A DNA stretch of 47,647 nt, from sequence record MF158039; one strand, 5' to 3'. This document shows, piece by piece, positions 24,191 through 42,654 of this stretch. This DNA is from Shigella phage Sf12. Position 1 is the stretch's first letter. Every line of letters begins with the position of its first letter. The notes below the pieces were generated by a model. The model was not told the DNA's origin and made no database searches. It saw only the letters and a list, made by a program, of their open reading frames with translations. The translations under genes were made by a program, and so were the position numbers.

Positions 24191-24198
24191 TTGTGATT

Positions 24199-24774
24199 TT
24201 AAGCAATATCTTCAGCGTACGAGCCTGCACTAAATACAGCGCCACCAACCGTTCGATATCCATATGGTAGGCATACTGGATTTCCAGCCGCAATGGTGTT
24301 TACTGCTGATCCAAATGCGTATGATGCTCTGTTGCTTGTCTGTGATGCCTGGTCATTCAATCCAGTCGCTTGTGGTGCCAATAACTGAGCTACACCACCA
24401 GCAAGAAGGCCTACAGCCACTGGCAAAAGAACAGGAAAGAAGTAAGACGCCACCAGAAGTACACCGCCAAGGATTGTCTGGAATAAGCCGCCAGATTTTC
24501 GACCTTGAGGTATTGGCATAATCCTGATTTCACGAACAGTCTCAAGGTCATTAATCTTGTGCTCGTTGACATTTTTCCCGTCAACGAATACAGCAAACCT
24601 TGTGTTCTGGCCCACATGGCTACGCATGAATTCTTTAAATTCAGGAATGTTTACAGAAAGAGCTCGCATTGCTTCTGGGACTGTTTTCACGCAAAGCTTA
24701 TGTAGCTTTCCAAACTTCCTGCCCAAACCTAATCCCAACTTAACATCAATCACGTTCTGGGTCATAACCCGCAT
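24199..24774 (-). CDS. Tail assembly protein (lambda gpI-like)
   Basis: C-terminal hydrophobic segment with GGVAQLLAP; position between K and J. Confidence 0.7.
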   Translation of the reverse strand: MRVMTQNVIDVKLGLGLGRKFGKLHKLCVKTVPEAMRALSVNIPEFKEFMRSHVGQNTRFAVFVDGKNVNEHKINDLETVREIRIMPIPQGRKSGGLFQTILGGVLLVASYFFPVLLPVAVGLLAGGVAQLLAPQATGLNDQASQTSNRASYAFGSAVNTIAAGNPVCLPYGYRTVGGAVFSAGSYAEDIA

Positions 24775-25522: not shown

Positions 25523-25971
25523 TTAACCTTCTGAATTCATCTACAGCAATTGATGCTGATTCAAATGATTCATGACTTCCTAAGCTGTATTTCTTCCCAT
25601 TGAAGACAACGCTTGCCCTGTAGTTATTTCTGTCCTTTCTAAATGTGACCCCACTTTCACCGGTTGTATTTCTCTTATTCATTTTCATGTTTTTTTTGAT
25701 TTTCAGAGTGACTAACAATCCTTAAATTTTCTACCCTATTGTCGGACCTCGAACCGTTTATGTGATCTATCTCCATACCTTCTGGTATATCACCGTTGTG
25801 CATTTCCCAAACAATCCTATGCACGTAATGATAACTTCCTTTAGCACCAACCCTCAAGTATCCTCCGCTACGCAAAGAACCCGCTAAAGATCCTATTACT
25901 ATATTTCTGTTTGTCTTCTTATTCCAGTAAAGCTTGCCATCTCTGTATTCAAAAATTTCATTCCAGTTCAT
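25494..25971 (-). pseudogene. HNH homing endonuclease split into two ORFs by a frameshift at a T8 homopolymer (25690..25697)
   Basis: ORF 25675..25971 carries the HNH motif EIDHINGSRSDNRVENLRIV; ORF 25494..25718 carries the C-terminal domain. Confidence 0.6.
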
Positions 25972-25992
25972 TTTTAATCTCCAGTTTAATAG

Positions 25993-26040
25993 ATTATAGG
26001 ATAGCGCATTTCTGCGCTACCCAATTAACAAAAAGTGCTT
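25993..26040 (-). promoter_or_regulatory. Variant junction cassette upstream of the HNH gene: palindrome-like (26026..26040), hairpin, consensus -10 TATAAT
   Basis: ttaacaaaaagtgctt; tagcgcatttctgcgcta hairpin; TATAAT complement of 25993..25998. Confidence 0.4.
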
Positions 26041-26806
26041 AAGTCTGTTGGTTGGCTTTAGCTTGCAGGCTTGCGGCTGCACAACCGCCAAAGTCTAATT
26101 GATTGTTAGCTCCAAACCTTAACTTACAGGCGGTCACGGTTCCAGCACAGAAGTCTTGTGATGGGTCAGTCACAGGCGCGTTGTCCTTATCGAAATATCG
26201 AGTACCCATGTAGTTACATCCATTGCCTGAGCGGTAAAGCCCTCGCTGAGCCCAATAACAAACTGACTGAACAAGGCGCGCCGGAATGTAGATACCATCC
26301 ATATCCATCGGGCTGGTTAGTTCAAATGAGGCCGTATTGTAATCAACCTGCTTAGGTCGCTCAATGAAGTAAACCAGCTTGCGGTAATCGCCATCAGCAA
26401 TGGTGCCATCTTCGTTAATATTCTCCCGAAGGGTGATCCAGATAGTAACCTTGGCCTGAACAAGGCCATTGTAGGTGCGGATAAGCGCAGAAATGTTCTG
26501 GTCAACATTAGAGACAACTAGCGTTACTTTGTTTGCCTTGCCATCAGAAGTCATATTAATACCCTGAATACCGAATGGCCTTGCGCCGTACTCTTCACCA
26601 CGGAAAGTAATTGTCTTCGCTGAAATAGGTTGCCCCGTAGACTGAGCAATCATAATTTCTTCTGGTGTGTAGCTGATGTTCTCTCCATGGAAGCGATACA
26701 CCCTCCCGCCAAACTTAGTGCCATCAACCTCGATTAGCGTAACAATCTCGCCAGGGAACAGGCTTTGTAATTGATTCTCAAACTTAGTGCTTAATGGCGT
26801 AGCCAT
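26039..26806 (-). CDS. Minor tail protein (lambda gpL-like)
   Basis: C-terminal Cys cluster C..C..C..C; position between M and K. Confidence 0.7.
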   Translation of the reverse strand: MATPLSTKFENQLQSLFPGEIVTLIEVDGTKFGGRVYRFHGENISYTPEEIMIAQSTGQPISAKTITFRGEEYGARPFGIQGINMTSDGKANKVTLVVSNVDQNISALIRTYNGLVQAKVTIWITLRENINEDGTIADGDYRKLVYFIERPKQVDYNTASFELTSPMDMDGIYIPARLVQSVCYWAQRGLYRSGNGCNYMGTRYFDKDNAPVTDPSQDFCAGTVTACKLRFGANNQLDFGGCAAASLQAKANQQT

Positions 26807-26820
26807 AATATTTCTCCAAT

Positions 26821-26842
26821 AAAAAAGACCCCGTAGGGTCTT
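26821..26842 (-). terminator. Rho-independent terminator after the moron gene
   Basis: gaccctacggggtc then tttttt on minus strand. Confidence 0.6.
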
Positions 26843-26860
26843 AGTTTATCTCAATTTACA

Positions 26861-27055
26861 TCAATCTTCACTAGTAATAACCTTTGATGCATTTTTTGAG
26901 TAGTGAGAAATCTCATCAAAAGACAATTCAACCCACTCATCCAAGCCAATCTCATAGTAAAGAGGTTTATCTCCAGAGTTATCAATTGTTACAGAGAATG
27001 GCTTTCCATTGTGGAAGTGAACCAGTACGAATTGTGATTTAGGGAAGTTTTTCAT
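26861..27055 (-). CDS. Moron: hypothetical 64-aa protein inserted between tail genes M and L
   Basis: Own junction-cassette promoter upstream and own terminator downstream. Confidence 0.5.
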   Translation of the reverse strand: MKNFPKSQFVLVHFHNGKPFSVTIDNSGDKPLYYEIGLDEWVELSFDEISHYSKNASKVITSED

Positions 27056-27103
27056 TTCATTATCCTCGTTTGTTTGTTTTGGTCATTTCGTTTCGATGAA
27101 GTG

Positions 27104-27150
27104 ATAATACACCACTTCACCGATTCGTCTTTAGCAATTCGTGCTATTTA
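27104..27150 (-). promoter_or_regulatory. Junction cassette copy driving the moron: palindrome (27132..27146), -10-like TATTAT (complement of 27104..27109)
   Basis: tttagcaattcgtgctattta; 22-bp gap; leader catcgaaacgaaatgaccaaaacaaacaaacgaggataATG. Confidence 0.55.
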
Positions 27151-27498
27151 CTGCATCGAGGTAAAAACTTCTACAAACTGCATTGATACAGTCTGCACTT
27201 CCCTAGTGTTTGGTGTGACACTGATGCTGTCTTGAGCCACAACAAACAACCTCAGCTCACCCTGCGGAGTTGTCCAGGCGAACGGGGTGATGATATGCGC
27301 AAAACAGAAGTCTAACACTTCCTTCCAGTTGGTGTTGGTGTAGGTCATGTTGTAAGTGCGCTTATTGGTTCTGTAACCTCCAGTACCAATTTGGGTGTAG
27401 CCATTACCGAATGAGACGCTTCTTACATTGCTTGCGTTGGTAAATGAGCCGCCGCCATTTTGAACCTGTGTACAAAAAGTAAAAGTATCTAATGCCAT
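27148..27498 (-). CDS. Minor tail protein (lambda gpM-like)
   Basis: Size, position between tape measure and L, N-terminal similarity as recalled. Confidence 0.6.
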   Translation of the reverse strand: MALDTFTFCTQVQNGGGSFTNASNVRSVSFGNGYTQIGTGGYRTNKRTYNMTYTNTNWKEVLDFCFAHIITPFAWTTPQGELRLFVVAQDSISVTPNTREVQTVSMQFVEVFTSMQ

Positions 27499-27529
27499 TT
27501 AAAATCCTTAGGGGCCGAAGCCCCATTTA

Positions 27530-30271
27530 TTAACTGTAACCGCGCAAGAACTGGTAAGCAGTCCCGCCCTGCTGGAAGGACTGAGTAATCTCTTCCGCGA
27601 TGATAACCCTGATACCAGATTCTAACTGTTTAGCGTCATTACCGCCACCGCCGCCAAGACCTGTCTGAACGGTAACATTCACTCCACCAACGTTAACGTT
27701 GCTTCCACCAACAAGTCCACCAGTCGCATAACCAGGACCAGAACCAACCACTCCGCCGTTGGCGTATCCGCGCATCAACTTGTACAGGTTGTCTACACCA
27801 ATCCTTGACGTTGCCTCCTTCGTAAAGACAAATTCACCACGATGCACTGTACCAGCTGGCTCGTACTTACCACCGTTTCCAGTGTAACCACCTGAAGCGA
27901 AACCAAATGCGCTACCAATGGAGCCAATAGCACCACCGCTACCGCCAAAACTAGAGATGGTTGACTCAATCGCCTTAATCAAAAGTAGCTGCGTTGCAAT
28001 GCGTGCAATCTGCTTCAAAATCGACGCTGTAAACTCGCGGAAGTTAGCCTCTCCAGTTGTTACCAAGTTTGTAATCTGATCAGTCAAGCCATTAAAGGCA
28101 CTCGTTGCCAATTCAGCTCCAATCTGATTGAAATTTGCCAATTCATCAGCTGTCTCGGCGAATGCTGACCTAACGCCAGCCAGCCAGTTACCACGTAATG
28201 CATCTTCCTGATTGTAGAAATTCTGACGAGCCTGAAGTAGCGCCTGAAAGTCAGTATCGTCTACTGAGCCACCTCGATTAACTTGCTGCGCTGTTAATGC
28301 TGCAATTTCACGCTGCCTCTCCTGCTCCCTTCTTGAAAGTCCAGCTCCAAGTGAAAGCGCTTCAGTCTGGGCGTTAATCTGATTGGTCTTCCTGATGTTT
28401 TCATCAAGTAATTTGTTTGCAGCTTCCTGCTGCTGAATCTGGTCACCTAGAATCGCAGACTTCTCACGCTCTGCAAGAATGATATCTCTCTTGGCGAACA
28501 ATTCACGCTGCGCTGCATTTGCAGTGCCTGCGTTAATTCTTTCCTCGATAACTGCAAACCTCGCCTGTTCATCAATTAGCTGCTTGCGCTGCTGACTGAG
28601 AGTTCTTCCTACCAGTTCCTGATCTTTAAGTACCCTGAGTTGAGCCTCCAGTGCTATCACTCCAGCTTCCGCGTCCTGGGTTAAGTCTCTTTGTTGTCTT
28701 GGCTGCCTTTCTGTGGTCCTCCTCCCATTTCTTGGTTTGTTTGCTTCGGCTAGTTCCTCCTTCCTGATTTCAACAATCCTATTGGCTTGTCTAATTGCCT
28801 CGGCATTACCGCTCAGCCTAATCTTGTTTAGCTGGCTTTCCGCTTGCTGTAATGCTCTAGTCGCACCAGCAACTCTATCAGTAGCGAAGTACTCCTTGTC
28901 GATTGCTGCTACAGTCTCAGCTCTTTCCCTCGCACCTTCACGAAGTGCGTTGTTTAGATCCGTTGCTGTTATCGCTATATCATCAATTGATCGCTGAACC
29001 CTTGCGTTGTTACTGACCTGTGAGTTACCAAGCTGCTGTAAAACTCTAGTTAGAAAACCAACCTCTGTTGCTGCCTGCTTGTAGCTATCAGCAATCCCTG
29101 CGACTTGAGCTTTGTGTTCTGCAATCTTTGCGTTAACTGCGGTGAAGTTTGAAGCATCCTTATACTGATCAACAAGCTCCCTCGCCTCTTCATAGCTCAA
29201 ACCAACATCAATAAGAGCAAGTTCAGCTTCTAAAGCGCCATCTGTAGTTGATACGAATGCTTGTGCAATTGACTCAGCAGACTTGCCTGTCTCCTCCGCG
29301 AGATCAGCGACCAGCTGACCAAGCCTTGATGCGGAATCACCAGTCAGGCCAAGTGATTTCTGAACTGCTGCCGTTCCTTCTTCCAGCCTCTTTTGTGAGT
29401 TGAATATTGATACGCCTAGCGTAGTAAATGCAATTGCAAGAACACCAAGAGAAGCCGTTACAGGGTTAATGTAACTAAGTAAGAACCTAAATGTGTTAGC
29501 GACACCTCCGAAGCTATCCTTAATCTGACCACCCTGCTGTATTGCAATAAGCCAAAGTGGTATGCCGCCAGCGATTGATGTCCCGATGTCTGTAATCTGC
29601 GCCGGAAGTTGTGCAATGGCATTTTTATATTGACCAGCGCTTAACCCTGATTTCCTGAACGCCTCGGCTTGACGACCTAGCGCTTCTACGTTAGCGTTCG
29701 TCCTTTGAGAAATTGATTGAATCAATGGTGCCGCCTGATCTGAAACACCAAGCTGGGCCGCTCTAAGTTCAAGAAGTTCTGTAGTTGTCCTTCCAGCTGC
29801 TAGCTCTTGCTGCCTGAGCGACTCAATGAACCTTTGACCAGCAGAGGCAAGCTTTTCTTTCTCTCTTGAGGCAGCTAGTGAAGCCCTACCTTCCTCAGTC
29901 AATGCGGCAGCACTTCTACGCAGTCTATTTTCCTGAGTCTCAAGAACCTCCCCAAGCCTGAAGAACTGCTCATCAGGAACTACACCAGCGGCAAACGCCT
30001 TATCTAAACCCTCCGCAGCTACACGCAACTTCTGTAGTTTTGAAGCCGTTGGGTCAATCGTCTGACTAAGCCTCTGAAAGGCTATCTGCTGTTCCTGCGT
30101 TGCCCTTGCGGTATCTCTGGCTATTGTCCTGGCAACTTGCTCAGCGTTAACAAACTTATCAACACCAGATGCCGCCTGTTCATTGGCACGTTTAAATTCT
30201 TGCAGGGACTTTGTGCCCTGTTCAACTTGGCGAACGTCAACGCCAAGTGTGATACCTGCAAATTCTGCCAT
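27530..30271 (-). CDS. Tail tape measure protein (start refined to Met 30271)
   Basis: About 910 aa, Ala/Gln-rich coiled-coil, Gly-rich C-terminus; follows G/T chaperones. Confidence 0.8.
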   Translation of the reverse strand: MAEFAGITLGVDVRQVEQGTKSLQEFKRANEQAASGVDKFVNAEQVARTIARDTARATQEQQIAFQRLSQTIDPTASKLQKLRVAAEGLDKAFAAGVVPDEQFFRLGEVLETQENRLRRSAAALTEEGRASLAASREKEKLASAGQRFIESLRQQELAAGRTTTELLELRAAQLGVSDQAAPLIQSISQRTNANVEALGRQAEAFRKSGLSAGQYKNAIAQLPAQITDIGTSIAGGIPLWLIAIQQGGQIKDSFGGVANTFRFLLSYINPVTASLGVLAIAFTTLGVSIFNSQKRLEEGTAAVQKSLGLTGDSASRLGQLVADLAEETGKSAESIAQAFVSTTDGALEAELALIDVGLSYEEARELVDQYKDASNFTAVNAKIAEHKAQVAGIADSYKQAATEVGFLTRVLQQLGNSQVSNNARVQRSIDDIAITATDLNNALREGARERAETVAAIDKEYFATDRVAGATRALQQAESQLNKIRLSGNAEAIRQANRIVEIRKEELAEANKPRNGRRTTERQPRQQRDLTQDAEAGVIALEAQLRVLKDQELVGRTLSQQRKQLIDEQARFAVIEERINAGTANAAQRELFAKRDIILAEREKSAILGDQIQQQEAANKLLDENIRKTNQINAQTEALSLGAGLSRREQERQREIAALTAQQVNRGGSVDDTDFQALLQARQNFYNQEDALRGNWLAGVRSAFAETADELANFNQIGAELATSAFNGLTDQITNLVTTGEANFREFTASILKQIARIATQLLLIKAIESTISSFGGSGGAIGSIGSAFGFASGGYTGNGGKYEPAGTVHRGEFVFTKEATSRIGVDNLYKLMRGYANGGVVGSGPGYATGGLVGGSNVNVGGVNVTVQTGLGGGGGNDAKQLESGIRVIIAEEITQSFQQGGTAYQFLRGYS

Positions 30272-30305
30272 GTAACCTCCATAAAAAAACCTCCACAAAG
30301 GGAGG

Positions 30306-33568: not shown

Positions 33569-33633
33569 ATTATATAGCCATATAAACAAAAATACCACCC
33601 CGAAGGGTGGTAGGTGATCAGCAATAATTGCTA
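33569..33633 (-). promoter_or_regulatory. Composite junction: palindrome (33619..33633) right after the capsid-gene stop, terminator hairpin (33596..33611), then -10 TATAAT (complement of 33569..33574)
   Basis: gcgTAA-TAGCAATTATTGCTG; ccacccttcggggtgg plus T-run. Confidence 0.55.
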
Positions 33634-34620
33634 TTACGCGAAGGTGATACCCTTCATGACTGCCATCGTTAAAGGCCTATACACGATCAAACCAGTTGCC
33701 TTGGAGGTTACTGGTACGCGGAAATGTAAATCCTTCGGCTGAGCCGGTAGTGCGTTAGTAGCTTCCGGAATCTCGATGGCCATGTTGTTCGGGTCTTTCT
33801 CATAAGCGATAGCTGCAGAGGTGCCAGTGCCATTGTAATCATTCAGGTACTGAACGAACTCAACAGTTACGCCGCTGTTGTTCTGGCGGAAGAATTCACC
33901 ATAGCTAACAGAGGTGCCAGGAACCAGGTTCTGCATGATACGACGAGCGGTAGTAGGCAGAAGAAGGTGCGTAGCGCGGTGCTGACCATTAGTTGAAGTC
34001 TCGATAATATCCAGAAGGCTTGTAATGTCGCTTACCGCTGTGGTAGGTTGAGCCCATGAGCCACCGCTAACAACGTTGTTGATATTTGGGTAGTCGAACA
34101 CGCTAGGGATGCCGTGAACGGTAGAGCCGGACCATACCAGTTTATCAAGCAGCTTGTCGTGAGCTTCGAAAGCCAAGGACTGCTTGCGAGCAGACAGTGA
34201 CTGACCAGTAGCCTGACCAACTTTAATTTCATCAATAGAAATCAGGAACGCGTTACCGAAACGGAAAACTTTACCCTGACGTTCAGTTGCTAAAGCGTCA
34301 ACCAGTGGCAGGTCATCAGTGTAGTCAGCTACGATCTGAGCAATACCAACGCCATCAAATACCGGATACTCAAAGTACTTAGCATAGCCAGGGATTTCAT
34401 TGCTTACAGGGAACAGGTTTACTACGGAGTTCTGATCGTACTCAGTCTCGTAAGCTTTATTCAGGCTTGCAGTGAGTTGCTTCACAGTCCAGATACCAGC
34501 CGCGTCGGCTTTATCAACACCCATCGCGCGCAGGTGGTTAGTAATCTTTTCTTGCTCGAAAGCGTCAAGTTTGATAGTCATATTAAGATGCATCCTTTTG
34601 TTTATGAGTTTACGTGTCAA
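33634..34620 (-). CDS. Major capsid protein (putative)
   Basis: 328 aa, followed by strong terminator; position in head module; no motif-level proof. Confidence 0.5.
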   Translation of the reverse strand: MTRKLINKRMHLNMTIKLDAFEQEKITNHLRAMGVDKADAAGIWTVKQLTASLNKAYETEYDQNSVVNLFPVSNEIPGYAKYFEYPVFDGVGIAQIVADYTDDLPLVDALATERQGKVFRFGNAFLISIDEIKVGQATGQSLSARKQSLAFEAHDKLLDKLVWSGSTVHGIPSVFDYPNINNVVSGGSWAQPTTAVSDITSLLDIIETSTNGQHRATHLLLPTTARRIMQNLVPGTSVSYGEFFRQNNSGVTVEFVQYLNDYNGTGTSAAIAYEKDPNNMAIEIPEATNALPAQPKDLHFRVPVTSKATGLIVYRPLTMAVMKGITFA

Positions 34621-34680: not shown

Positions 34681-36156
34681 CTATGCGAGAGGTTCGCTTA
34701 AGTTTTCCACCTTATAAGCGTAAACGCCAGCCAAGGCATCGGATGAGTTCCTTATGCCAACTATTGTAAGCTTGAAGCATTTAGAGTCAGCTGTAGCTCC
34801 TGGTGATGTGGTTACGTAGTGCTCAGATGTGACTCCAAAAACTCCTGGCTTGAACACGCTATTCCAAAGAGCAGTCCCAGGAGGCATGCTTGTTACTATC
34901 GCTGTGTAGTTTTTCAACTTATCAGCTGCAACTGTAGTGAGTGAGTCAATCTGGTATGCAGTGTGCCTTATTGAAGCGATGTTTGATGTACCGGTATTAC
35001 TAACACCAACCCACAGCCCCTTAGCGGCAACTGTCGCATTCTTCTCTCCGGTAAGAGCGAACCTTATTGTTGTCTCTCCAGGTATATCTATAAAGTCAGT
35101 ATCCGTCTGATTGATCAACCCTGACCTTACGCCTGAAGCTACGTTATAAGAGGCTGGACCAGCCACCCCCTGTAAGCCCTGAGGTCCCGTAGGGCCCTGC
35201 AATCCACGCTCACCCTGCGGGCCTGCCGGGCCTTGTGGTCCAACTGCACCAGCTACACCTTGTAAGCCTTGCGGGCCAGCTGGGCCTTGCTCACCTTGCA
35301 GGCCCCTCTCGCCTTGTGGGCCTTGAATACCTGCCGGACCTGTCGGGCCAGTTGGGCCTGCTGGACCAGCGGAACCCTGTGGGCCTGGAGCACCCTGTGC
35401 GGCCAGTAACTCCCAGGAATCGCTAACATCTGGATTTTCTCCGGTCACGGCGGCGGTAGCAAACCAGCTTGAGTTATTGAATGTAACAACGTCATCTTTA
35501 ACGTAAGCTGTCGCTGCGTCGTACATCCCGCGGAATGTTAAGCCTGCCGGACCAACTGGGCCCGCATCACCTTTATCACCTTTAGGGCCAGCAGGACCTG
35601 CTGCGCCAGTTGCACCGATAGGGCCTTGCGGACCAGCCTCGCCAGTTTCACCTTGAGGACCTTGCGGGCCTACGGGGCCAGCTGGACCAGTTTCGCCTTT
35701 AGCACCTGCCGCGCCTGCCGGGCCGGTAGCACCTGTTGGGCCTTGAGGACCCTGTGGACCAATAGCTCCTGCCGGGCCCGCTGGACCCTGTGGACCAACC
35801 GGACCTTGTGGGCCTGCTTCACCTGAGCCTCCTTCTTCATCACTTACAAAATCACCTTTCGCCAGCGCTGAAAGATAAGCACCATCTTCGAAGTGGGCAT
35901 TGCCAAACCTGCGCCAGCCCTGGGCTAGATATCTGTTAACCCTGTTAACTAATCCCTGAATTGTGGTATCGGATGTCACCATGAAGTCTTCAACGTTGTT
36001 TGCTGTTCCCTTCGCCATCTTCATGCCAAAGAGGGTGCCGCTCAGCATCTGCACGTCGCCATATGGCTGGAATCCTGATGAAATCATCATTTTTACGTTT
36101 CTGGCTAAGATTTCAGGTGAATTCCCTACTGCCATAGCAATTTCTGTGTAAGCCAT
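34681..36156 (-). CDS. Collagen-like triple-helix repeat protein (fiber-like structural protein)
   Basis: Two long Gly-X-Y tracts, e.g. [34 protein letters not shown]. Confidence 0.8.
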
Positions 36157-36210: not shown

Positions 36211-36232
36211 AAAAAACCTCCCAAAGGAGGTT
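36211..36232 (-). terminator. Rho-independent terminator
   Basis: aacctcctttgggaggtt then tttttt on minus strand. Confidence 0.6.
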
Positions 36233-36237
36233 TGATA

Positions 36238-37530
36238 TTAAACGCGAGAAACTGAAAGGATTTCCACTTGGGCGCCAGTTTGTAAGTATAGCTGGCCAGC
36301 AACGTCATTCTCATCAATAGCATTTACTACGCCAGAGAAGATTCTGACACCAAAACCTTTAGTCAGCCTTGCCACTACGTTAAATCCACGAGGCTTAACT
36401 GGAACCATTAGTGATTTCTGACCTGTAGCCGCCAGAAAAACCTCGCGAGCCATAGCCATACCCCTGAACTCATGACCCAGAGCGCCAGGGTGAACCCTAT
36501 CAGTTCCGGTGTATATTTCAGAGTTTGCTGCCGTTACATAGTTGCTAATGTTGATTACTGGTATCCCGTTATCAGCACAGAAGCCATCAACCAACTCAAC
36601 AACCCTCTGAGTTGTGGCATTCAATCCAATTGGTGTTGCGCAGCTAATCTGGATGATTGGTACATCACTGTAAGTCTTCCTGGTCTCCTCCAGGCACTCC
36701 GACATAGACCTAAGCAGCCACTCAGCCTTGCCAGGGTCATTTATTGAAACTGAGTCATTATAACCAAGCGCCCACGAGATAACGTCAGGTTTTCTATTTA
36801 ACGCTGCGAGCCTTGTCTTTACCCTGTTAATCGGGAACCTGCCCTCCTCTTTTGAAGTCCAGGCCGATCCACCAATCCCTTCGCAGATACCATCGAATCC
36901 AAGCGCTCGACTAAAAGTATAGAAGTCGTTTACTGCAGGGGATGAGCCATAAGACTGAGTCCTAAATCCCGCACCAGTACCAGCTGTGTAGCTATCACCC
37001 ATCTGGTAAATGAATGGCCTTTTAATAGTAATATCCCTGCTAATCGTGTCTAACGGACCGAATGCGAAAGAGCCAAATGCAGTGTTAACGCCATAAATCT
37101 CAATATGCCTTAACTTTCCGCTAACGACTCCATCATTGGCCTTCACTTGAATCCAGCTAACACCCTCAGTGGTTGGTGTCGTGATAGCATCTAGGGTTAC
37201 CAATTTACCGTCAACGAATATTGAGTAAGATGAAAGAGAGCCAATGGTCTTAATTTCAAAAAGCCTTGAATCAGTCATAAACTCAAGTTTCATCTGAAGG
37301 CCATTCGAAGGCTTCTGACCAGTGTAAGACCCGCCTGAAACGTTATCAAATCCGTAGGTTGTCCACATGAGATTGGTCTCATTAAGTCTATTGATAACTT
37401 GAGGGGTGGTAATTGATGTTGCGGCCCTGATTTCCTTGATTGCGGAAAACTCAGTCGATAGCTGAACTGGCTGCATAGTAGCCAAGCCGTTTTCAATATT
37501 TCTTTTTACCAAATCAATAAAGCTTGCCAT
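36238..37530 (-). CDS. SGNH/GDSL-family esterase with about 170-aa N-terminal non-catalytic domain
   Basis: Block I GDSYTAG, block III GYND, block V DRVH. Confidence 0.7.
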   Translation of the reverse strand: MASFIDLVKRNIENGLATMQPVQLSTEFSAIKEIRAATSITTPQVINRLNETNLMWTTYGFDNVSGGSYTGQKPSNGLQMKLEFMTDSRLFEIKTIGSLSSYSIFVDGKLVTLDAITTPTTEGVSWIQVKANDGVVSGKLRHIEIYGVNTAFGSFAFGPLDTISRDITIKRPFIYQMGDSYTAGTGAGFRTQSYGSSPAVNDFYTFSRALGFDGICEGIGGSAWTSKEEGRFPINRVKTRLAALNRKPDVISWALGYNDSVSINDPGKAEWLLRSMSECLEETRKTYSDVPIIQISCATPIGLNATTQRVVELVDGFCADNGIPVINISNYVTAANSEIYTGTDRVHPGALGHEFRGMAMAREVFLAATGQKSLMVPVKPRGFNVVARLTKGFGVRIFSGVVNAIDENDVAGQLYLQTGAQVEILSVSRV

Positions 37531-37580
37531 TTTCTTTCCTCCAATTTTAAGTGAAACTAATTGTACCAGTTTACAGGCAT

Positions 37581-37603
37581 AAAAAAACCTCCCGAAGGAG
37601 GTT
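37581..37603 (-). terminator. Rho-independent terminator
   Basis: aacctccttcgggaggtt then ttttttt on minus strand. Confidence 0.6.
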
Positions 37604-37612
37604 TGATCTGAA

Positions 37613-38137
37613 TTATTCCATTAACTCATAAGTAACAATGGCTCGTCCTGATGTTTTTTTGTTCACTTCAGCAGCTACACCTGCCACGACGATAATCCTG
37701 TGTGCATATGCTTCTGGATCTATAGTCCAGTTGTAATATCCATTATATGGACCACTAAAAACGTATACCGCATCATCATCAAAGTCATTAGCAAGCTTTG
37801 GCTTAGACAGCGGTGTTAGACCCATAGATTCACACATCTCATAACCAATCATCTCATGATCTACAGTTGGTTGCTTTCCCATACCAAGATCAATAACAAT
37901 CAATTTAATGCTTGAAAATTTAACCCCAGAACTAACAGTCTCAGAGTAAGGTAATGATGTGGCACTTGATTTTTTATACGTCTCCTTTGAGGTTGCGCTT
38001 AAGTTGAATCCCTTGTATGAAGCGACCTCTAGGTATGGGAATGATCCGATAAATGAAACCTCTTTCTCGCTGAAATTATCTGCAATTGCAGCAGATAGTT
38101 CATCTAAAGTAATCAAGTCTAAGTTTAGCTTCTTCAT
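37613..38137 (-). CDS. Hypothetical structural-module protein (ORF 37613..38200, start refined to Met 38137)
   Basis: ORF track; upstream extension would cover a terminator hairpin. Confidence 0.4.
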   Translation of the reverse strand: MKKLNLDLITLDELSAAIADNFSEKEVSFIGSFPYLEVASYKGFNLSATSKETYKKSSATSLPYSETVSSGVKFSSIKLIVIDLGMGKQPTVDHEMIGYEMCESMGLTPLSKPKLANDFDDDAVYVFSGPYNGYYNWTIDPEAYAHRIIVVAGVAAEVNKKTSGRAIVTYELME

Positions 38138-38174
38138 ATAAACCCCTATTAAAAAGGCCCCGAAGGGCCATTTA

Positions 38175-38648
38175 TTATTTCTGAATAACCTGAACTTCAA
38201 CGAGCGCTGGGTCAGTTAATGCATCAGCTCCAGCTGCCTGGAAGCCACCTGCGAATGTCCAGTTAGTAGTGATTGCACCACCGCTTGTTGCGGAGCCATC
38301 AGTACCAATGGTAACCGCGCTGCCAAATGCCGGAGCGGCAGAAAGACCGGTAACCATCCAGATGCGACCGTGAGTCATTACGTTAGCGACCTGGAAGTTA
38401 TCAATATTACCAACAACGCCACCGTAAGAGCCGCGCGGGCTTTCGTAGTGTGACTTCACCAGAACGCCATATACGTTATCAGCAACAGCGGAAACCAGAA
38501 CTTTGTGACCATCAGCATCAACAGAACCGACACCAACAGCATAACCGACACCCTGAACTACTCCGGTAGACATTATACATGCACCATCAATATTGTACAG
38601 AGAGGTATCTGCAACCATACCAGCAGTAGCTTGACGACGAATTGCCAT
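38175..38648 (-). CDS. Gly/Ala/Val-rich structural protein (possible decoration or minor head protein)
   Basis: Composition and position after scaffold-like gene. Confidence 0.4.
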   Translation of the reverse strand: MAIRRQATAGMVADTSLYNIDGACIMSTGVVQGVGYAVGVGSVDADGHKVLVSAVADNVYGVLVKSHYESPRGSYGGVVGNIDNFQVANVMTHGRIWMVTGLSAAPAFGSAVTIGTDGSATSGGAITTNWTFAGGFQAAGADALTDPALVEVQVIQK

Positions 38649-38659
38649 ATTAAGACTCC

Positions 38660-39769
38660 TTATTTTTTCAATTTAGCGAGGCGAGCGCGCGGGTTAAGAG
38701 TCTTAACTTCCGGTGCTGCATCAGATTTTTCCGCGCCAGCAACTGCTACACGGGCTTCAGCCATTTTATCAGAAGATTTGGCGATATCAAAGGCCGCATC
38801 GATGTACGCATCAGATTTCTCAGCAACTTCAATACCAGATACTTCTTTAACGTAAGCAACTTTAATTGCTTTAGCGTCCAGGCCATCACATTTAACGCCA
38901 GCTTCTGCAGCAACGGCGACCAGAGCAGCCAGTTCATCAGCATCAGCTTTAGCTTTCGCTACAGCAGCTTCGATTTCAGCAGGAATGCCATCAACTTTAG
39001 CTTTCAGTGCGTCACGCTCAGCTTCAAGGGTGTCAGCTTTGGCCTTGGCCTGTTCTGCATCAGCTTTAACGGCCTCGATATGCTTAGCAACTTCCGGGGC
39101 GATTTCGAACTCCTGCTCGCCATCCAGTTTAATCTTAATCATCAATTTATCCTCTTTATTTGATTGAACGGTATCAGTATACGGGTTTTCCTGTTCCGCG
39201 TCCAGATTCAGTTTAGCCACTTGCGCACGGCCTTTATATACCAGAGCAATGTGGTTCACAACGATGTTTGTTTGCAGAGCATCAAAGCGTACCCAATCAG
39301 CAGGAATCTCATCCTGACTTGAGTATTCTCCATCAAGCTTATACTCACCAGTTTCATTGCTGCCCCAGCCAGGAGACTCAATATCAACAGTGTTGTAGCC
39401 AACCGAAAGCTCACCAGCAACGCCAGACCTAGCCTTCTCGATTGCTTGCTTGTCGTAAACGGTAAGAGGAACGACAACTGTAGAATCCTGGCGCATCGCC
39501 GTACCGGATACTGCGCCAACTACGACATCCTTGGCGTTATCTGAGTTAACTACAACGTGACCTAAGGTAAGCGGCTTGCCCTGATAACTTTGCAGAGAGT
39601 CAGCTTTAAAGACCTCTGATGCTGGTCGGAACTCTCGGCGCTCCGAACCATCTGGCAGATGGTAAGTTTGCACGCCTACACGCGCAACCACTGGAGTGTC
39701 TACGAGAAACCCGTTTTCATCGAAATGGGCCTTTACTTTGGCGCTATCATAACGCATCTTACTCTTCAT
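38660..39769 (-). CDS. Head morphogenesis protein: N-terminal globular domain plus Ala/Lys/Glu-rich coiled-coil scaffold-like C-terminus
   Basis: C-terminal low-complexity AKADAEQAKAKADTLEAERDALKAK; position after portal. Confidence 0.5.
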   Translation of the reverse strand: MKSKMRYDSAKVKAHFDENGFLVDTPVVARVGVQTYHLPDGSERREFRPASEVFKADSLQSYQGKPLTLGHVVVNSDNAKDVVVGAVSGTAMRQDSTVVVPLTVYDKQAIEKARSGVAGELSVGYNTVDIESPGWGSNETGEYKLDGEYSSQDEIPADWVRFDALQTNIVVNHIALVYKGRAQVAKLNLDAEQENPYTDTVQSNKEDKLMIKIKLDGEQEFEIAPEVAKHIEAVKADAEQAKAKADTLEAERDALKAKVDGIPAEIEAAVAKAKADADELAALVAVAAEAGVKCDGLDAKAIKVAYVKEVSGIEVAEKSDAYIDAAFDIAKSSDKMAEARVAVAGAEKSDAAPEVKTLNPRARLAKLKK

Positions 39770-41036
39770 TAATCACCACCTCCTCTACTAATTCTTCCTG
39801 AGCGGGTTGCTCTGGCAAGTTAACATCGCCATCCTGAAGCTTAACTTCCGTCGCAATGGTACGTAGTGTATCACGAGCTTCTTCGGTATTCATCACGCCA
39901 GCAGCAATCAATGCGGCGACTGAGTTAACGTTCTTCTCAAGAATCTCAGACTTATCTTTATCGCTAACCTGAGATAGGGGGTTAAATTCCACTGACCACT
40001 CTTGCTTAGTTACGATGAACGGTAACAGAAACTCAAGAAGAGGCAGCAATTCAGCCTTTCGCTTGCGGTCAACGTACCCGTAAAACGTCTCTAAAGCAGT
40101 ATTCTGGCTTGCTGATACGCCGCCAACGTTCTTGCCTTTAAGGATAATCTCGTGAATACCGCTCAGAGCAACGATTCGGTCAAACTTCTGACTCAAAAAC
40201 GTATCAATACCGCCAATATCCGAGTTAAGTACGTTATATTCCTCGCTCTCTGCGTCAATGCCGATTGCCTGGCCAACTCCACTGTTATTATCAACCTGTG
40301 CCAGGCGCAATCGAGCCGCGCCAAATCCATCTGAATCATCGCACAGGTCAGCTAAACCCTTGGCTTTCCAAACCGCCTGCTGTTTACGACGCAGTAACTG
40401 AGTAGCCAGTCGCTCACAGTTCTGATAGTCGTCAATAGCGTCGATTAAGTCACCAGTTAGTACGCTTGCGCCCCAGCCATCGTTGTTGCGACGTAAATTG
40501 TTAGGCACTCGCTCGCCATCAATGATATGGCAGCGTGTATAATGCACATCGTAGAACGTTGCCGCACCATTTGGCGTAATGCGGTAAGTTAATGGCTTAC
40601 CAAATCTAGCGTTACGTGGATTCTCCTCGCGAGTCTGGACCTTAACTTGCTGCCGGTCGTATACGCGAACAGTTTCGAGCTCCGCGCCTTCACGAATCGG
40701 GCTGGTTAGTGCTCTGCCATCCTTAACGATTGCCACTACAGCGGCGCCACCGTATAACCTCGCCCACGCCAGAGCGTCGATTACACTATCTGAAAGGTCT
40801 AAATCATCCCAGCGCGACCAGAAAGCGCCCTCATCATCAATGCCTTCAATGTTGAAGCCTGCGCCAAGCGCTACCTCTGGCACGATATCAATGATTCGGC
40901 GAACCAACGCGCTGCTGACGTAAAGCTGCTCAAGCTGCGCTGGCGCTGTTAAACCAAGGCTGCCAAACTTTCCGTAAATCTCGCTACCATCACTCCCGTT
41001 AAGAAAGATGTTTGCGTAGCTGTCTGCTTTTACCAT
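39759..41036 (-). CDS. Portal protein (putative)
   Basis: 425 aa directly downstream of the large terminase; position-based. Confidence 0.5.
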   Translation of the reverse strand: MVKADSYANIFLNGSDGSEIYGKFGSLGLTAPAQLEQLYVSSALVRRIIDIVPEVALGAGFNIEGIDDEGAFWSRWDDLDLSDSVIDALAWARLYGGAAVVAIVKDGRALTSPIREGAELETVRVYDRQQVKVQTREENPRNARFGKPLTYRITPNGAATFYDVHYTRCHIIDGERVPNNLRRNNDGWGASVLTGDLIDAIDDYQNCERLATQLLRRKQQAVWKAKGLADLCDDSDGFGAARLRLAQVDNNSGVGQAIGIDAESEEYNVLNSDIGGIDTFLSQKFDRIVALSGIHEIILKGKNVGGVSASQNTALETFYGYVDRKRKAELLPLLEFLLPFIVTKQEWSVEFNPLSQVSDKDKSEILEKNVNSVAALIAAGVMNTEEARDTLRTIATEVKLQDGDVNLPEQPAQEELVEEVVINEE

Positions 41037-41049: not shown

Positions 41050-41072
41050 TAAAAAAGCCCCTGAGTAAGGGG
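41050..41072 (-). terminator. Hairpin plus T-run between large terminase and portal
   Basis: gcccc-ttactcag-gggc then ttttttatt on minus strand. Confidence 0.5.
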
Positions 41073-41085
41073 CAGTTTATCATGA

Positions 41086-42654
41086 TTACTTGACTCCAGC
41101 TAGTCGCATTAAGCGGGCTCTTGGGTCGTCACTCAAGTTCAATTCACAGTTGATTGCCATCGTTGTTGTATCCACAATGTCATCATGAGGGTGTGAATCG
41201 TCCGCAGTGAACGCTGAGAACTCAGTTAACAGCGATGTAAGCCACGGTGCAGAGTCTGGCAGAACTACGTTACCAGCCTTAATCTGTGGCAATGCGCTCA
41301 TCACTCTGGTTAGTTTATCCGTATCTGGAACAAATGGTTCGATAGGTGTTCTCATGGTTCGACCTGCTGACTGGATAAGGCCGATACCAGATGCCTTTTT
41401 CTCGATAATAACCTTGCGTAAGATACCATCCGTTTTACTGGTTGCCCTATGCTTGCTCTCAAAATCCAGCAGAGTTTGCTCAAGCTCTGGAGCCTCCCAT
41501 TTCCCCCTCACCATATCCAGAAGGTAGAGCTTGTTATCCTTACGCCCCCAGAGCTGGAATACTGAGTAGTCGCTATAACTCTTCGTAGTCATGGCAGTAT
41601 CAGCCGTAATGAAGCGGTAGTCATACTTGACTGGCGGCCTGTTGTTCTCATCAAGCCTTACGAACCAATCTACGTTAATCAGGTTTCCACCCAGAGCTAC
41701 TGGCTCCTGCTGGTACTGGCTTAGGAATGTATACGGGTCTGAGTCCCACATCGCCATCAGGTCGTGCACAGATTCCTTTTGTGGAAAGTAGCTATAGTAT
41801 TTCACGCCGTCACGCTCAACTGATTCGGATGACAGGACATCCTTCTCGAACTGCTCACGAATCCAGTCAGGAAGCTCATTCGCATAGTCTTCAGTAACCA
41901 GCGCTGGTATCTTTACCACATCAAAGTCGATACCCATACCGCCAGAAGTCATGAACCACGTTGAATCCTGCGTATGTAGCCTTTGCTGGATTGATATAAT
42001 TGGCGTTGATTTACCCTTGACGCTACTTGCCCTACGCGAGCGGATGGTGTTTTTTAGCAACATGTGAACAGACTCGCGCTTCACCTTACTAAACATATCA
42101 TCAGCTTTATCGATATCGTCCAGCATCAGGCATCCGCTATAGGTGTCCGTGATATACCCACCACGACTGCCCGTAATCTGAGAGCCAATTGCCTTGGATA
42201 TGGATTCAAACTTAACCTTCCCAGAATCATCTAGCACCTGAATCTCATCATCCTTACAGGTTCCAAACTTGCACGGGAAAAGACTTTGAAACTCAACTGA
42301 CTTGATAAGGTCACGCACTCGCTTTGAGTTACGCTTCACAAGGCTATCAGAGAACGAGAGGTTAAGGTTCCTTACTTTCTTCAGCTTAAGCATCGAATAA
42401 ACCGGAAAGTGGATCGATGTAATCTCGGTTTTTCCGGCCCCCGGCGAAATATTTATAATCGTATCCTTCCTCTCGCCAGAAACTATCTCATCAATGATTC
42501 TGCATAGGTATTTATGGTGCCAGTTAGGAATGTATCGCTCTGATTGAGATAGCTGGAACCATACACGAAGGAATGCCTCGAAACTGTGAGTGGATAGTGC
42601 CTTAACTGCCAGCTTTTCAGCTGGCGTCATCTCTTCCCAAACTAATGTCTTCAT
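41086..42654 (-). CDS. Terminase large subunit
   Basis: Walker A-like SPGAGKT near N-terminus; acidic nuclease-like C-terminal half; overlaps TerS by 4 bp. Confidence 0.8.
   Translation of the reverse strand: MKTLVWEEMTPAEKLAVKALSTHSFEAFLRVWFQLSQSERYIPNWHHKYLCRIIDEIVSGERKDTIINISPGAGKTEITSIHFPVYSMLKLKKVRNLNLSFSDSLVKRNSKRVRDLIKSVEFQSLFPCKFGTCKDDEIQVLDDSGKVKFESISKAIGSQITGSRGGYITDTYSGCLMLDDIDKADDMFSKVKRESVHMLLKNTIRSRRASSVKGKSTPIISIQQRLHTQDSTWFMTSGGMGIDFDVVKIPALVTEDYANELPDWIREQFEKDVLSSESVERDGVKYYSYFPQKESVHDLMAMWDSDPYTFLSQYQQEPVALGGNLINVDWFVRLDENNRPPVKYDYRFITADTAMTTKSYSDYSVFQLWGRKDNKLYLLDMVRGKWEAPELEQTLLDFESKHRATSKTDGILRKVIIEKKASGIGLIQSAGRTMRTPIEPFVPDTDKLTRVMSALPQIKAGNVVLPDSAPWLTSLLTEFSAFTADDSHPHDDIVDTTTMAINCELNLSDDPRARLMRLAGVK

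What the first reader, a model, noticed from the sequence alone, without database searches (positions are those of the whole stretch)
36238..37530. SGNH/GDSL esterase encoded inside the head module next to a collagen-like protein
Catalytic blocks GDSYTAG, GYND and DRVH are all present behind a non-catalytic N-terminal domain of about 170 aa. Phage SGNH esterases are normally receptor-modifying tail-spike or fiber enzymes (O-antigen or capsule deacetylases). This one lies between portal/scaffold and capsid genes, adjacent to a 491-aa collagen-repeat protein. That suggests a virion-displayed enzymatic fiber, possibly capsid-anchored, or a misplaced tail-spike module.
Basis: partly seen in the sequence, partly recalled or inferred. 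Interest (0 to 1): 0.7.

Follow-up and report, generated by a model that had tools for sequence, protein, structure and literature searches.

The report
Probable capsid-displayed sugar esterase, phage Sf12
A T1-like Shigella phage carries an intact sugar-deacetylating enzyme in the genome slot its relatives use for head-surface proteins, and relatives of the enzyme in T4-like phages are fused to known capsid-binding modules, so it is probably displayed on the phage head, which nobody has tested.

Summary
The window is Shigella phage Sf12 (Drexlerviridae), and 36238-37530(-) encodes gp58, 430 aa. It has the SGNH blocks GDS (S180), GIGGS, GYND (N258) and DRVH (D344/H347). These residues are 97-100% conserved in about 165 homologues.

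The N-terminal domain and the SGNH domain together have the fold of family-2 carbohydrate esterases (CE2). There is also a third domain, a 50-aa C-terminal beta-beta-alpha-beta module found only in Drexlerviridae copies.

The gene is a self-contained cassette flanked by a duplicated terminator hairpin. It sits in a hotspot between the cement gene and the major capsid gene. In 71 related loci, every other occupant of this slot is a capsid-surface protein: a second cement paralogue with or without Ig domains, or a fibre whose Rogue1 homologue is a major virion band.

In T4-like phages the same esterase core is fused to the Hoc capsid-binding domain (already noted by Fokine 2023) or to a Soc-like domain.

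Capsid display is therefore the best reading (about 0.5), but no proteomic or structural evidence exists. The tail-spike reading and dependence on the collagen protein are not supported. This is a new variant of a known kind, of moderate interest.

The parts
36238..37530 (-). Sf12 gp58: a 430-aa, three-domain SGNH/GDSL esterase gene (stop codon included)
   Evidence: ORF. 100% identity to Sf12_gp58. Pfam Lipase_GDSL_2 E=1.1e-13. PHROG 9703 E=1.2e-149. AF2 model pLDDT 84, pTM 0.82.
37036..37485 (-). N-terminal beta-sandwich domain (aa ~16-165), with a low-confidence loop at aa 63-76
   Evidence: All-beta secondary structure in the model. Foldseek alignments of 356-407 columns to 325-375-residue two-domain CE2 esterases 2wab, 2wao, 3u37, 4xvh and to SsfX3 3skv, E 7e-15 to 1e-11. 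Homologous to CC31p007 aa 189-330.
36436..37023 (-). SGNH catalytic domain (aa 170-365): S180 nucleophile, G220 and N258 oxyanion hole, D344/H347
   Evidence: Pfam match. Invariant columns. Conservation counts.
36241..36393 (-). C-terminal beta-beta-alpha-beta domain (aa 380-430). It is specific to Drexlerviridae-type copies and is the candidate capsid anchor (inferred).
37585..37604 (-). Upstream copy of the terminator-like hairpin AAACCTCCTTCGGGAGGTTT followed by a T-run
   Evidence: The same hairpin follows the cement gene in Sd1 and Rogue1.
37531..37584 (-). Cassette leader. It contains TGgTACAAT (37568-37560), which looks like an extended -10 element, and a GGAGG Shine-Dalgarno 8 nt before the ATG.
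   Evidence: Read from the sequence. The leader is the same in Sd1 except one base in the T-run after the hairpin. Promoter function is inferred, not shown.
36214..36233 (-). Downstream copy of the hairpin AAACCTCCTTTGGGAGGTTT followed by a T-run
   Evidence: 2 matches in the window against 0 expected. It is followed by the same leader that precedes the collagen gene in Rogue1.
38175..38648 (-). Context: cement/decoration protein gene, the upstream border of the slot
   Evidence: Pfam PF22758 Phage_cement E=2e-21.
34681..36156 (-). Context: collagen-repeat fibre gene, an independent cassette in the same slot
   Evidence: Pfam Collagen E=9e-27. The Rogue1 homologue gp21 is one of three virion bands identified by mass spectrometry (PMC3496638). 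The N-terminal 111 aa are 93-97% conserved while the tip varies.
33634..34620 (-). Context: major capsid protein gene, the downstream border of the slot
   Evidence: Pfam PF09950 E=3.5e-41 and PHROG 264.

Best explanation
gp58 is a catalytically competent carbohydrate O-acetylesterase, and it is most likely displayed on the outside of the Sf12 capsid as an accessory decoration.

Anatomy (shown):
- A CE2-like beta-sandwich plus SGNH core with an intact Ser-Asp-His triad and oxyanion-hole residues.
- No signal peptide.
- A lineage-specific 50-aa C-terminal domain.
- The gene is an autonomous cassette (own leader, Shine-Dalgarno and terminator hairpin) inserted at the terminator that follows the cement gene, in the late head operon.

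Mechanism (inferred):
- The protein is made late together with the head proteins.
- It binds the mature capsid surface, most plausibly through the C-terminal domain. This would be the counterpart of the Hoc- or Soc-derived N-terminal modules that its T4-like homologues carry.
- It removes O-acetyl groups from a surface or environmental polysaccharide that the particle meets. Candidates are O-antigen, enterobacterial common antigen, capsule or mucus glycans.
- This would ease passage through, or release from, the glycan layer. Receptor recognition stays with the tail (J fibre and side fibre).

My step-by-step confidence: active esterase about 0.85; virion or capsid association about 0.5; anchoring through the C-terminal domain about 0.35; a specific substrate cannot be called.
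For: Enzyme:
- Pfam GDSL E=1e-13.
- Catalytic residues are 97-100% conserved in about 165 homologues.
- Confident model, pLDDT 84.
- Two-domain Foldseek matches to CE2 esterases and SsfX3 (E down to 7e-15; TM normalised to the target mostly 0.51-0.66).

Display, by homology of architecture:
- gp58 aa 27-357 is 32% identical (E=1e-43) to the C-terminal 310 aa of CC31p007.
- The first 85 aa of CC31p007 match Hoc-like PHROGs (E=2.5e-41). They align to RB5 Hoc aa ~294-360 of 376, which is the capsid-binding domain.
- Fokine et al. 2023 describe the identical PG7 protein as a Hoc capsid-binding domain plus a GDSL domain that may functionalise the capsid (PMC10385173).
- A second, independent fusion exists. 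The CIP9 protein starts with a Soc domain (Pfam E=1.2e-9; 39% identity to its own Soc, E=2e-14) and is encoded directly after soc.
- Most homologues put the core at the extreme C-terminus behind variable N-terminal modules. These include tail-fibre, Mtd_N, Soc and Hoc types. The core therefore behaves as a virion-display cargo.

Display, by locus:
- In 71 loci the cement|MCP slot holds a second cement paralogue with Big_2 (25), a second cement paralogue alone (25), nothing (11), a fibre (6), the esterase plus a fibre (3) or the esterase alone (1).
- The fibre's Rogue1 homologue is a major virion protein.
- Copies only 35-47% identical to gp58 still sit immediately after the cement gene.
Against: - No proteomic, EM or biochemical data exist for gp58 or any close homologue. 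Rogue1 and the AHP24-type phages that were analysed by mass spectrometry lack the gene.
- The linker to the C-terminal domain is predicted with pLDDT of about 90 and the overall pTM is 0.82. The domain may therefore be packed onto the enzyme rather than act as a free anchor.
- The T7-like homologue in phage Peggy lies next to lysis genes. Late expression and the lack of a signal peptide fit a lysis-released soluble enzyme equally well.
- The RefSeq 'head decoration' label is inherited from PHROG 9703. Its Hoc-like part (profile positions 1-166) is exactly the part gp58 lacks.
Confidence: 0.5

Rival explanations
1. gp58 is a soluble accessory enzyme. It is made late in the cytoplasm, is not assembled into particles, and is released at lysis. 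It then deacetylates glycans on neighbouring cells, on debris or in mucus. This would work as a shared benefit to progeny phage or as a receptor-destroying function, comparable to the NanS-p esterases of Stx prophages.
For: - The first 28 residues show no hydrophobic signal-like stretch (read from the translation).
- The gene is bracketed by terminator-like hairpins and has its own leader, so it can be expressed as a separate unit.
- The Peggy homologue sits beside the spanin and endolysin genes.
- The C-terminal domain has no recognisable capsid-binding homology.
- The gene is dispensable: most relatives lack it.
Against: - Homologues are repeatedly fused to virion modules (Hoc capsid-binding domain, Soc, tail-fibre N-termini), which suggests the core works attached to particles.
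- The position directly after the cement gene is strictly conserved down to 35% identity.
- All other occupants of the slot are capsid-surface proteins.
- A conserved, confidently folded extra domain of unknown role is present only in this lineage.
Confidence: 0.3
2. gp58 rides on the collagen-like fibre encoded next to it, and the two form one 'enzymatic head fibre' complex.
For: The two genes are adjacent in Sf12, Sd1, AugustePiccard, L010 and L072. The fibre homologue is a virion protein in Rogue1.
Against: The esterase occurs without the fibre in IME542 and L011. The fibre occurs without the esterase in Rogue1, phiKP26 and L014/L018/L019. No domain is shared between the two proteins.
Confidence: 0.08
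3. gp58 is a tail-associated receptor-modifying enzyme (tail spike or fibre) whose gene has been displaced into the head module.
For: Many distant homologues carry tail-fibre-type N-terminal modules. PhiPsa374 gp053, a 44.7-kDa SGNH hydrolase annotated as a tail fibre protein in that paper, is abundant in virions (PMC9796965).
Against: gp58 has no N-terminal extension at all. The PDB fold matches are CE2-type and other SGNH esterases, with no tail-spike structures. The tail module, including J and a side fibre with the conserved fibre N-terminus, is complete elsewhere. The gene position in the head slot is conserved across subfamilies.
Confidence: 0.05
4. gp58 is an enzymatically dead structural or lectin-like decoration that only binds glycans.
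For: In CE2 enzymes the active site can double as a carbohydrate-binding site (title of PDB entry 2w9x).
Against: All catalytic and oxyanion residues are retained and near-invariant across the family.
Confidence: 0.03

Closest known systems
The 511-aa Hoc-like/GDSL protein of Enterobacter phages PG7 and CC31 (CC31p007), noted by Fokine et al. 2023 (PMC10385173)
   Same: It has a homologous beta-sandwich+SGNH core: 32% identity over 333 aligned positions, E=1e-43. It belongs to the same PHROG 9703. All catalytic residues are conserved.
   Different: CC31p007 carries an N-terminal Hoc capsid-binding domain and a GGxGYxVGD linker domain (phrog_32129), and it ends right after the SGNH domain. gp58 lacks both and instead has a C-terminal 50-aa domain. 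CC31p007 is encoded among early or middle genes of a myovirus, whereas gp58 lies in the head operon of a siphovirus.
Soc-SGNH fusion of Kanagawavirus CIP9, annotated 'hoc' (also found in IME523, Q7622, Entb_45 and ZX14)
   Same: The same core: 36-37% identity to gp58 aa 62-361.
   Different: The N-terminus is a Soc domain (Pfam E=1.2e-9) and the gene lies directly downstream of soc. gp58 has no Soc-like part.
Carbohydrate esterase family 2 (CtCE2 2wab/2wao, CjCE2 2waa/2w9x, Est2A 3u37/4dev, fungal CE2 4xvh)
   Same: Both have an N-terminal beta-sandwich followed by an SGNH domain. Foldseek E ranges from 7e-14 to 6e-11 and TM (normalised to the target) from 0.51 to 0.66.
   Different: Sequence identity is only 12-16%. 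gp58 has no Pfam CE2_N hit. gp58 keeps the Asp of the triad, which many CE2 enzymes lack (my own knowledge). gp58 also has an extra C-terminal domain and a phage origin.
Tail-spike and tail-fibre SGNH deacetylases of phages (for example the Possum tail fibre, PMC9569702; PhiPsa374 gp053, PMC9796965)
   Same: These are virion-borne SGNH esterases that act on host polysaccharide.
   Different: They are attached to the tail through N-terminal adaptor domains and serve in receptor recognition. gp58 has no such domain and is encoded in the capsid-surface slot.
Non-enzymatic capsid display proteins: T4 Hoc, and the Big_2-bearing second cement paralogues of other Drexlerviridae
   Same: These are dispensable proteins that put a glycan- or surface-interacting module on the outside of the head. 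In Drexlerviridae they occupy the same genomic slot.
   Different: Their cargo is an Ig-like binding domain, not an enzyme. The way they are anchored (a cement fold or the Hoc capsid-binding domain) is known or evident, whereas for gp58 it is not.
NanS-p sialate O-acetylesterases of Stx prophages
   Same: These are phage-encoded, signal-less accessory O-acetylesterases expressed late.
   Different: My own knowledge: NanS-p proteins carry an N-terminal DUF1737 and a different esterase family, and they are not known to be virion components. In Sf12 a weak DUF1737-like signal is found in the neighbouring collagen protein, not in gp58.

Membership tests
SGNH/GDSL hydrolase superfamily | Block I GDS with the nucleophile Ser | tested here: met
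   GDSYTAG at aa 178-184. S180 is conserved 167/167 and D179 167/167.
SGNH/GDSL hydrolase superfamily | Block II Gly and block III GxND Asn (oxyanion hole) | tested here: met
   GIGGS at 218-222 (G220 in 144/165). GYND at 256-259 (N258 in 158/163).
SGNH/GDSL hydrolase superfamily | Block V DxxH (Asp-His of the triad) | tested here: met
   DRVH at 344-347. D344 is conserved 149/152 and H347 153/153.
SGNH/GDSL hydrolase superfamily | Profile match and alpha/beta/alpha fold | tested here: met
   Pfam PF13472 scores 52.5 bits against a cut-off of 32.9. Foldseek finds many SGNH esterases at probability 1.00.
Carbohydrate esterase family 2 (CE2) | Two-domain architecture: an N-terminal beta-sandwich followed by a C-terminal SGNH domain | tested here: met
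   Foldseek alignments of 356-407 columns to 2wab, 2wao, 3u37, 4xvh and 2waa, E 7e-14 to 6e-11.
Carbohydrate esterase family 2 (CE2) | Sequence-level membership (Pfam CE2_N PF17996 or a CAZy-type match) | tested here: not met
   The gp58 N-terminal domain gives no CE2_N hit at E<=1. The CC31 homologue gives only E=0.063. Identity to CE2 structures is 12-16%.
Carbohydrate esterase family 2 (CE2) | Deacetylation of acetylated glycans (the 6-O preference reported for CE2) | not testable with these tools
   This needs enzyme assays.
PHROG 9703 'head decoration' | Match to the esterase core of the profile (positions ~167-500) | tested here: met
   E=1.2e-149; gp58 aa 16-367 align to profile positions 167-500.
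PHROG 9703 'head decoration' | The part that justifies the family name: the Hoc-like capsid-binding N-terminus and the linker (profile positions 1-166) | tested here: not met
   This part is absent from gp58. It is present in CC31p007.
Hoc family (T4 head outer capsid protein) | Conserved capsid-binding domain plus Ig-like domains | tested here: not met
   gp58 gives no Hoc-like PHROG or Pfam hit. phmmer with the CC31 N-terminal 90 aa hits RB5 Hoc but no gp58-type protein.
Phage tail spike / tail fibre | N-terminal tail-attachment module, a trimeric fibre or beta-helix body, and a gene in the tail module | tested here: not met
   There is no N-terminal extension. The fold is CE2-like. The tail genes lie at 13084-14280 and 20762-30298.
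Capsid decoration protein (functional class) | Gene in the head module or capsid-surface slot | tested here: met
   It lies between the cement and MCP genes. Slot survey.
Capsid decoration protein (functional class) | Physical presence on mature capsids | not testable with these tools
   No proteomics or structure was found for Sf12, Sd1, AugustePiccard or IME542 in the searchable literature.

The most novel reading that the evidence does not exclude
Drexlerviridae have a modular 'capsid display slot' between the cement and capsid genes. Into this slot they load interchangeable surface cargos: Ig domains on a second cement paralogue, collagen or other fibres on a DUF1737-like anchor, or a CE2-like esterase. 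In Sf12 the slot yields a capsid that is itself enzymatically active. About 50 residues of a previously undescribed C-terminal domain tether an O-acetylesterase to the head, and the enzyme strips acetyl groups from a glycan common to Enterobacterales, for example 6-O-acetyl-GlcNAc of ECA or of O-antigen. Together with the independent Hoc- and Soc-fused versions in T4-like phages, this would be the first family of catalytic capsid decorations.
Probability: 0.3. Interest if true: 0.7.

Novelty: new variant of a known kind. Interest (0 to 1): 0.5.

Why it matters
Capsid decorations are known as stabilisers (cement, Soc, gpD) or as adhesins (Hoc Ig domains). An enzyme on the head would add a third role, in which the whole particle surface modifies the glycan layer it moves through.

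The family provides three natural, independent anchoring solutions for the same cargo: the Hoc capsid-binding domain, a Soc domain, and the Drexlerviridae C-terminal domain. This makes it a ready-made test of the idea of capsid 'functionalisation' raised by Fokine et al. 2023. It is also a possible source of small anchor tags for phage display on T1-like capsids.

It also bears on annotation. The current labels 'head decoration' and 'head outer capsid protein' for gp58-type proteins are transferred from a domain these proteins do not have. AugustePiccard (Bas01) is in the BASEL collection, so the experiments are straightforward.

Tried and rejected
- Literature searches for Drexlerviridae+SGNH, Rogue1+collagen, Sf12/Sd1, 'head outer capsid'+SGNH, and Drexlerviridae cryo-EM found no study of this protein. 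The Doore 2018 Sf12/Sd1 paper is not held.
- tblastn with the domain found only the six closest phages.
- A profile search of 5.8 billion proteins returned nothing, not even the source proteins, so that null result is uninformative.
- An HMM of the domain scanned against all six-frame ORFs of the window found no paralogue. This rejects the idea that gp58 and the collagen protein share an anchor.
- Sequence search of PDB found only generic acetyl esterases.
- The consensus promoter scan was at chance level (13 found, 12.9 expected), so no promoter claim rests on it.
- The first related-loci run, with a single protein, reached only three close relatives. It was repeated with an alignment.
- Model coordinates are not exposed. 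I therefore could not check domain packing or active-site geometry.
Full report
IDENTITY AND OBSERVATION

The window is the complete 47,647-bp genome of Shigella phage Sf12. The target protein is 100% identical to 'Sf12_gp58' on a contig of exactly that length. The closest record is Shigella phage Sd1 (Drexlerviridae, Rogunavirinae, Wilsonroadvirus), with 98.6% amino-acid identity.

The ORF 36238-37530(-) encodes 430 aa. Block II, GIGGS, lies at 218-222. Pfam Lipase_GDSL_2 matches aa 177-354 at E=1.1e-13, well above its cut-off.

In a local alignment of the query with about 165 homologues drawn from a 1.84-billion-protein library:
- S180 is conserved 167/167.
- D179 is conserved 167/167.
- N258 is conserved 158/163.
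- D344 is conserved 149/152.
- H347 is conserved 153/153.

ANATOMY OF THE PROTEIN

An AlphaFold2 model built on 18 homologues is confident (pLDDT 84, pTM 0.82). It shows three parts:
- an all-beta N-terminal domain (aa ~16-165, with a disordered loop at 63-76);
- the SGNH domain (aa 170-365);

Foldseek against the PDB aligns the first two domains together (356-407 columns) to two-domain enzymes. These are the CE2 carbohydrate esterases CtCE2 (2wab, 2wao), CjCE2 (2waa, 2w9x), Est2A (3u37, 4dev) and a fungal CE2 (4xvh), and the acyltransferase SsfX3 (3skv). E-values range from 7e-15 to 6e-11 and TM normalised to the target from 0.51 to 0.66.

At the sequence level CE2 membership fails. gp58 has no CE2_N Pfam hit, and the CC31 homologue reaches only E=0.063. 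So gp58 works like a CE2-type glycan esterase, but I do not file it as a CE2 member. Its first 28 residues show no hydrophobic signal-like stretch.

GENOMIC CONTEXT

On the minus strand the order is:
- TerL, 41086-42654
- portal, 39759-41036
- DUF2213 protease/scaffold, 38660-39769
- cement protein PF22758, 38175-38648
- orphan ORF, 37613-38137
- gp58
- collagen-repeat protein, 34681-36156
- major capsid protein, 33634-34620
- head-tail connector genes, tail tube and tape measure

The tail-tip genes, the J-like central fibre (20762-24157) and a side fibre (13084-14280, + strand) lie elsewhere.

gp58 is bracketed by two copies of one hairpin followed by a T-run: AAACCTCCTT[C/T]GGGAGGTTT at 37604-37585 and 36233-36214. 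There are 2 matches in the window against 0 expected by chance.

In Rogue1, which lacks the esterase, a single copy of this hairpin follows the cement gene. It runs straight into the leader that in Sf12 precedes the collagen gene. In Sd1 the same hairpin follows the cement gene and is followed by the gp58 leader. The esterase gene is therefore a self-contained cassette of leader, Shine-Dalgarno, ORF and terminator copy, inserted at that terminator.

THE SLOT IS RESERVED FOR CAPSID-SURFACE GENES

I collected 74 IMG/VR loci using a cement-protein alignment. In the 71 loci that also contain the capsid gene, I classified what lies between the cement gene and the capsid gene:

| Slot content | Loci |
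|---|---|
| Second cement paralogue with C-terminal Big_2 Ig-like domain(s) | 25 |
| Second cement paralogue alone | 25 |
| Empty | 11 |
| Collagen fibre | 3 |
| Non-collagen fibre with the same N-terminal domain | 3 |
| Esterase plus collagen fibre (Sf12, Sd1, L072) | 3 |
| Esterase alone (IME542) | 1 |

Pfam confirmed the Big_2 and cement assignments on example proteins.

The Rogue1 homologue of the fibre (gp21) is one of three virion bands identified by mass spectrometry, at 59.5% coverage (PMC3496638). Its N-terminal 111 aa are 93-97% conserved while the distal part changes, which is the pattern of a conserved anchor with a variable tip.

The esterase and the fibre are independent. IME542 and L011 have the esterase without a fibre. 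Rogue1 and phiKP26 have a fibre without the esterase. An HMM of the gp58 C-terminal domain finds nothing else in the window.

The esterase keeps its position directly after the cement gene in copies that have diverged to 47% (L011) and 35% (L010, L072) identity.

HOMOLOGUES ELSEWHERE ARE BOLTED TO KNOWN CAPSID ANCHORS

PHROG 9703 ('head decoration') matches gp58 at E=1e-149, but only over profile positions 167-500. The family name comes from the other end of the profile.

CC31p007 (511 aa) shares 32% identity with gp58 over its last 310 residues (E=1e-43). Its first 85 residues hit Hoc-like PHROGs (E=2.5e-41). They align to residues ~294-360 of the 376-aa RB5 Hoc. Fokine et al. [quoted passage not shown] The same paper explicitly notes that the PG7 511-residue protein has the capsid-binding domain at its N-terminus and a GDSL domain at its C-terminus, as a possible way to functionalise the capsid surface (PMC10385173). 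PG7's first 90 residues are identical to those of CC31p007.

I found a second, independent fusion. The CIP9 protein annotated 'hoc' (504 aa) begins with a Soc domain (Pfam PF16855, E=1.2e-9, 39 bits against a cut-off of 27). It is 39% identical to the phage's own Soc (E=2e-14) and is encoded immediately downstream of soc.

More broadly, most of the 150 listed representatives end 3-9 residues after the SGNH domain and carry variable N-terminal extensions of up to about 570 aa. Among 52 such extensions:
- 24 contain a GGxGYxVGD linker domain (phrog_32129);
- the modules ahead of it include tail-fibre, tail-spike, hyaluronidase-type and Mtd_N modules, as well as Soc and Hoc types.

The core thus behaves as a cargo that phages attach to virions, on tails or on heads.

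Only the Drexlerviridae lineage inverts the layout. It has no N-terminal module and about 65 extra C-terminal residues. That domain is the most divergent part of the protein: 18-29% identity, against 57-61% for the catalytic domain between Sf12 and AugustePiccard or L011. By analogy it is the candidate anchor, but this is inference.

WHAT WEAKENS THE CAPSID-DISPLAY READING

No virion proteomics or structure exists for any phage carrying a gp58-type gene in the literature I could search. The T1-like phages that were analysed lack the gene.

The linker is predicted with high confidence, so the domain may be packed on the enzyme rather than act as a free tether.

A T7-like homologue (Cronobacter phage Peggy) lies between the terminase and lysis genes. 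Late expression without a signal peptide would suit a lysis-released soluble enzyme just as well.

VERDICT

The esterase is real, intact and almost certainly active (about 0.85).

It rests on locus logic and on two independent capsid-anchor fusions in homologues, not on direct evidence.

The main rival is a soluble, lysis-released esterase (about 0.3). Coupling to the collagen fibre (about 0.08) and a misplaced tail spike (about 0.05) are disfavoured.

The substrate cannot be called. Candidates are O-acetylated O-antigen, ECA or capsule of Enterobacterales, or mucus glycans. I raise these because the closest homologues are nearly all in phages of Enterobacterales, but that link is speculation.

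NOVELTY

Databases already label the gene 'SGNH/GDSL hydrolase', 'head decoration' or 'putative head outer capsid protein'. The T4-like Hoc-domain fusion has been remarked on in print.

I did not find the following described elsewhere:
- the CE2-like two-domain fold;
- the Drexlerviridae-specific C-terminal domain;
- the cassette structure with the duplicated terminator;
- the Soc fusion;
- the view of the cement|MCP interval as an exchangeable capsid-display slot.

I rate it a new variant of a known kind, with moderate interest (0.5).

Noticed in passing
window 37613-38137 (-), ORF callable from TTG 38200: An orphan ORF of 174-195 aa lies between the cement gene and gp58. It is absent from Sd1, gives no Pfam or PHROG hit, and has no tblastn match in 50,697 phage records. 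A GGCCCTTCGGGGCC hairpin with a T-run (38169-38156) lies inside the long form, so ATG 38137 is the likelier start.
   Followed up: partly
L008:4359-5873 (Enterobacter phage CIP9, gene annotated 'hoc'): This protein is a Soc-domain/SGNH-esterase fusion, not a Hoc. Pfam Soc matches aa 10-58 (E=1.2e-9), it is 39% identical to the phage's own Soc, and it is encoded immediately after soc. I did not see this fusion described in the papers searched.
   Followed up: yes
L025:6501-7283, L031:6507-7523, L035, L046 and others (IMG/VR Drexlerviridae-like loci): 50 of 71 related loci carry a second cement-protein paralogue directly before the capsid gene. In 25 of them it is extended by one or two Big_2 Ig-like domains, giving a Hoc-like display built on a cement fold. 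These paralogues never co-occur with the esterase or the fibres.
   Followed up: partly
window 34681-36156 (-); L005:4864-5361; L021:6619-7308; L085:6606-7280; L024:7139-7828: The collagen protein's N-terminal ~110 aa look like two DUF1737-like repeats (weak Pfam hit, E=4.8e-4). This part also occurs alone: the JK06 and JLA23 stubs are misannotated 'DNA polymerase'. It also occurs on a non-collagen Ala/Gly-rich fibre. It therefore looks like the virion anchor of a fibre family. DUF1737 also heads the NanS-p esterases of Stx prophages (my own knowledge).
   Followed up: partly
window 34681-36156 (-), aa 212-248: A weak CBM_5_12 carbohydrate-binding signal (E=4.8e-3, below the cut-off) lies between the two collagen stretches. 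Sd1's annotators made the same call (IPR003610). After about residue 250 the protein no longer matches Rogue1 (tblastn coverage stops at aa 251), so the distal part differs between Sf12/Sd1 and Rogue1.
   Followed up: no
window 38660-41036 (-) compared with L004:8144-8908 and L005:7033-7776: In Sf12, Sd1 and AugustePiccard the protease gene follows the portal gene directly. Rogue1, JLA23 and L011 have a ~250-aa 'head morphogenesis' gene between them. I did not check whether Sf12 encodes it elsewhere.
   Followed up: no
L007:4998-5230 (phage IME542): The IME542 esterase reading frame is intact from the position of the normal start, but that codon is ATT instead of ATG. The record therefore annotates the gene from an internal Met equivalent to M80. 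Two database proteins, P0015 and P0016, also start at that Met.
   Followed up: partly
CC31p007 aa 96-175, CIP9 aa 80-159, and about 35 of the 150 listed representatives (for example P0021, P0029): A conserved ~85-aa linker domain with the motif GGxGYxVGD...G.YT..P (phrog_32129, function unknown) sits between the variable N-terminal anchor and the esterase core in many homologues. gp58 lacks it.
   Followed up: partly
L018:6392-7277: In one IMG/VR relative the collagen-fibre gene is split into two ORFs of 150 and 151 aa. This is probably a frameshift or an assembly error.
   Followed up: no
window 33593-33612, 38156-38169, 41057-41073 (-): Head-region genes are individually followed by GC-rich hairpins with T-runs: after TerL, after the cement gene, after the orphan ORF, after gp58 and after the MCP gene. 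The scan found 13 terminator-like sites against 8.4 +/- 2.7 expected. These may set the stoichiometry of expression within the late operon.
   Followed up: no
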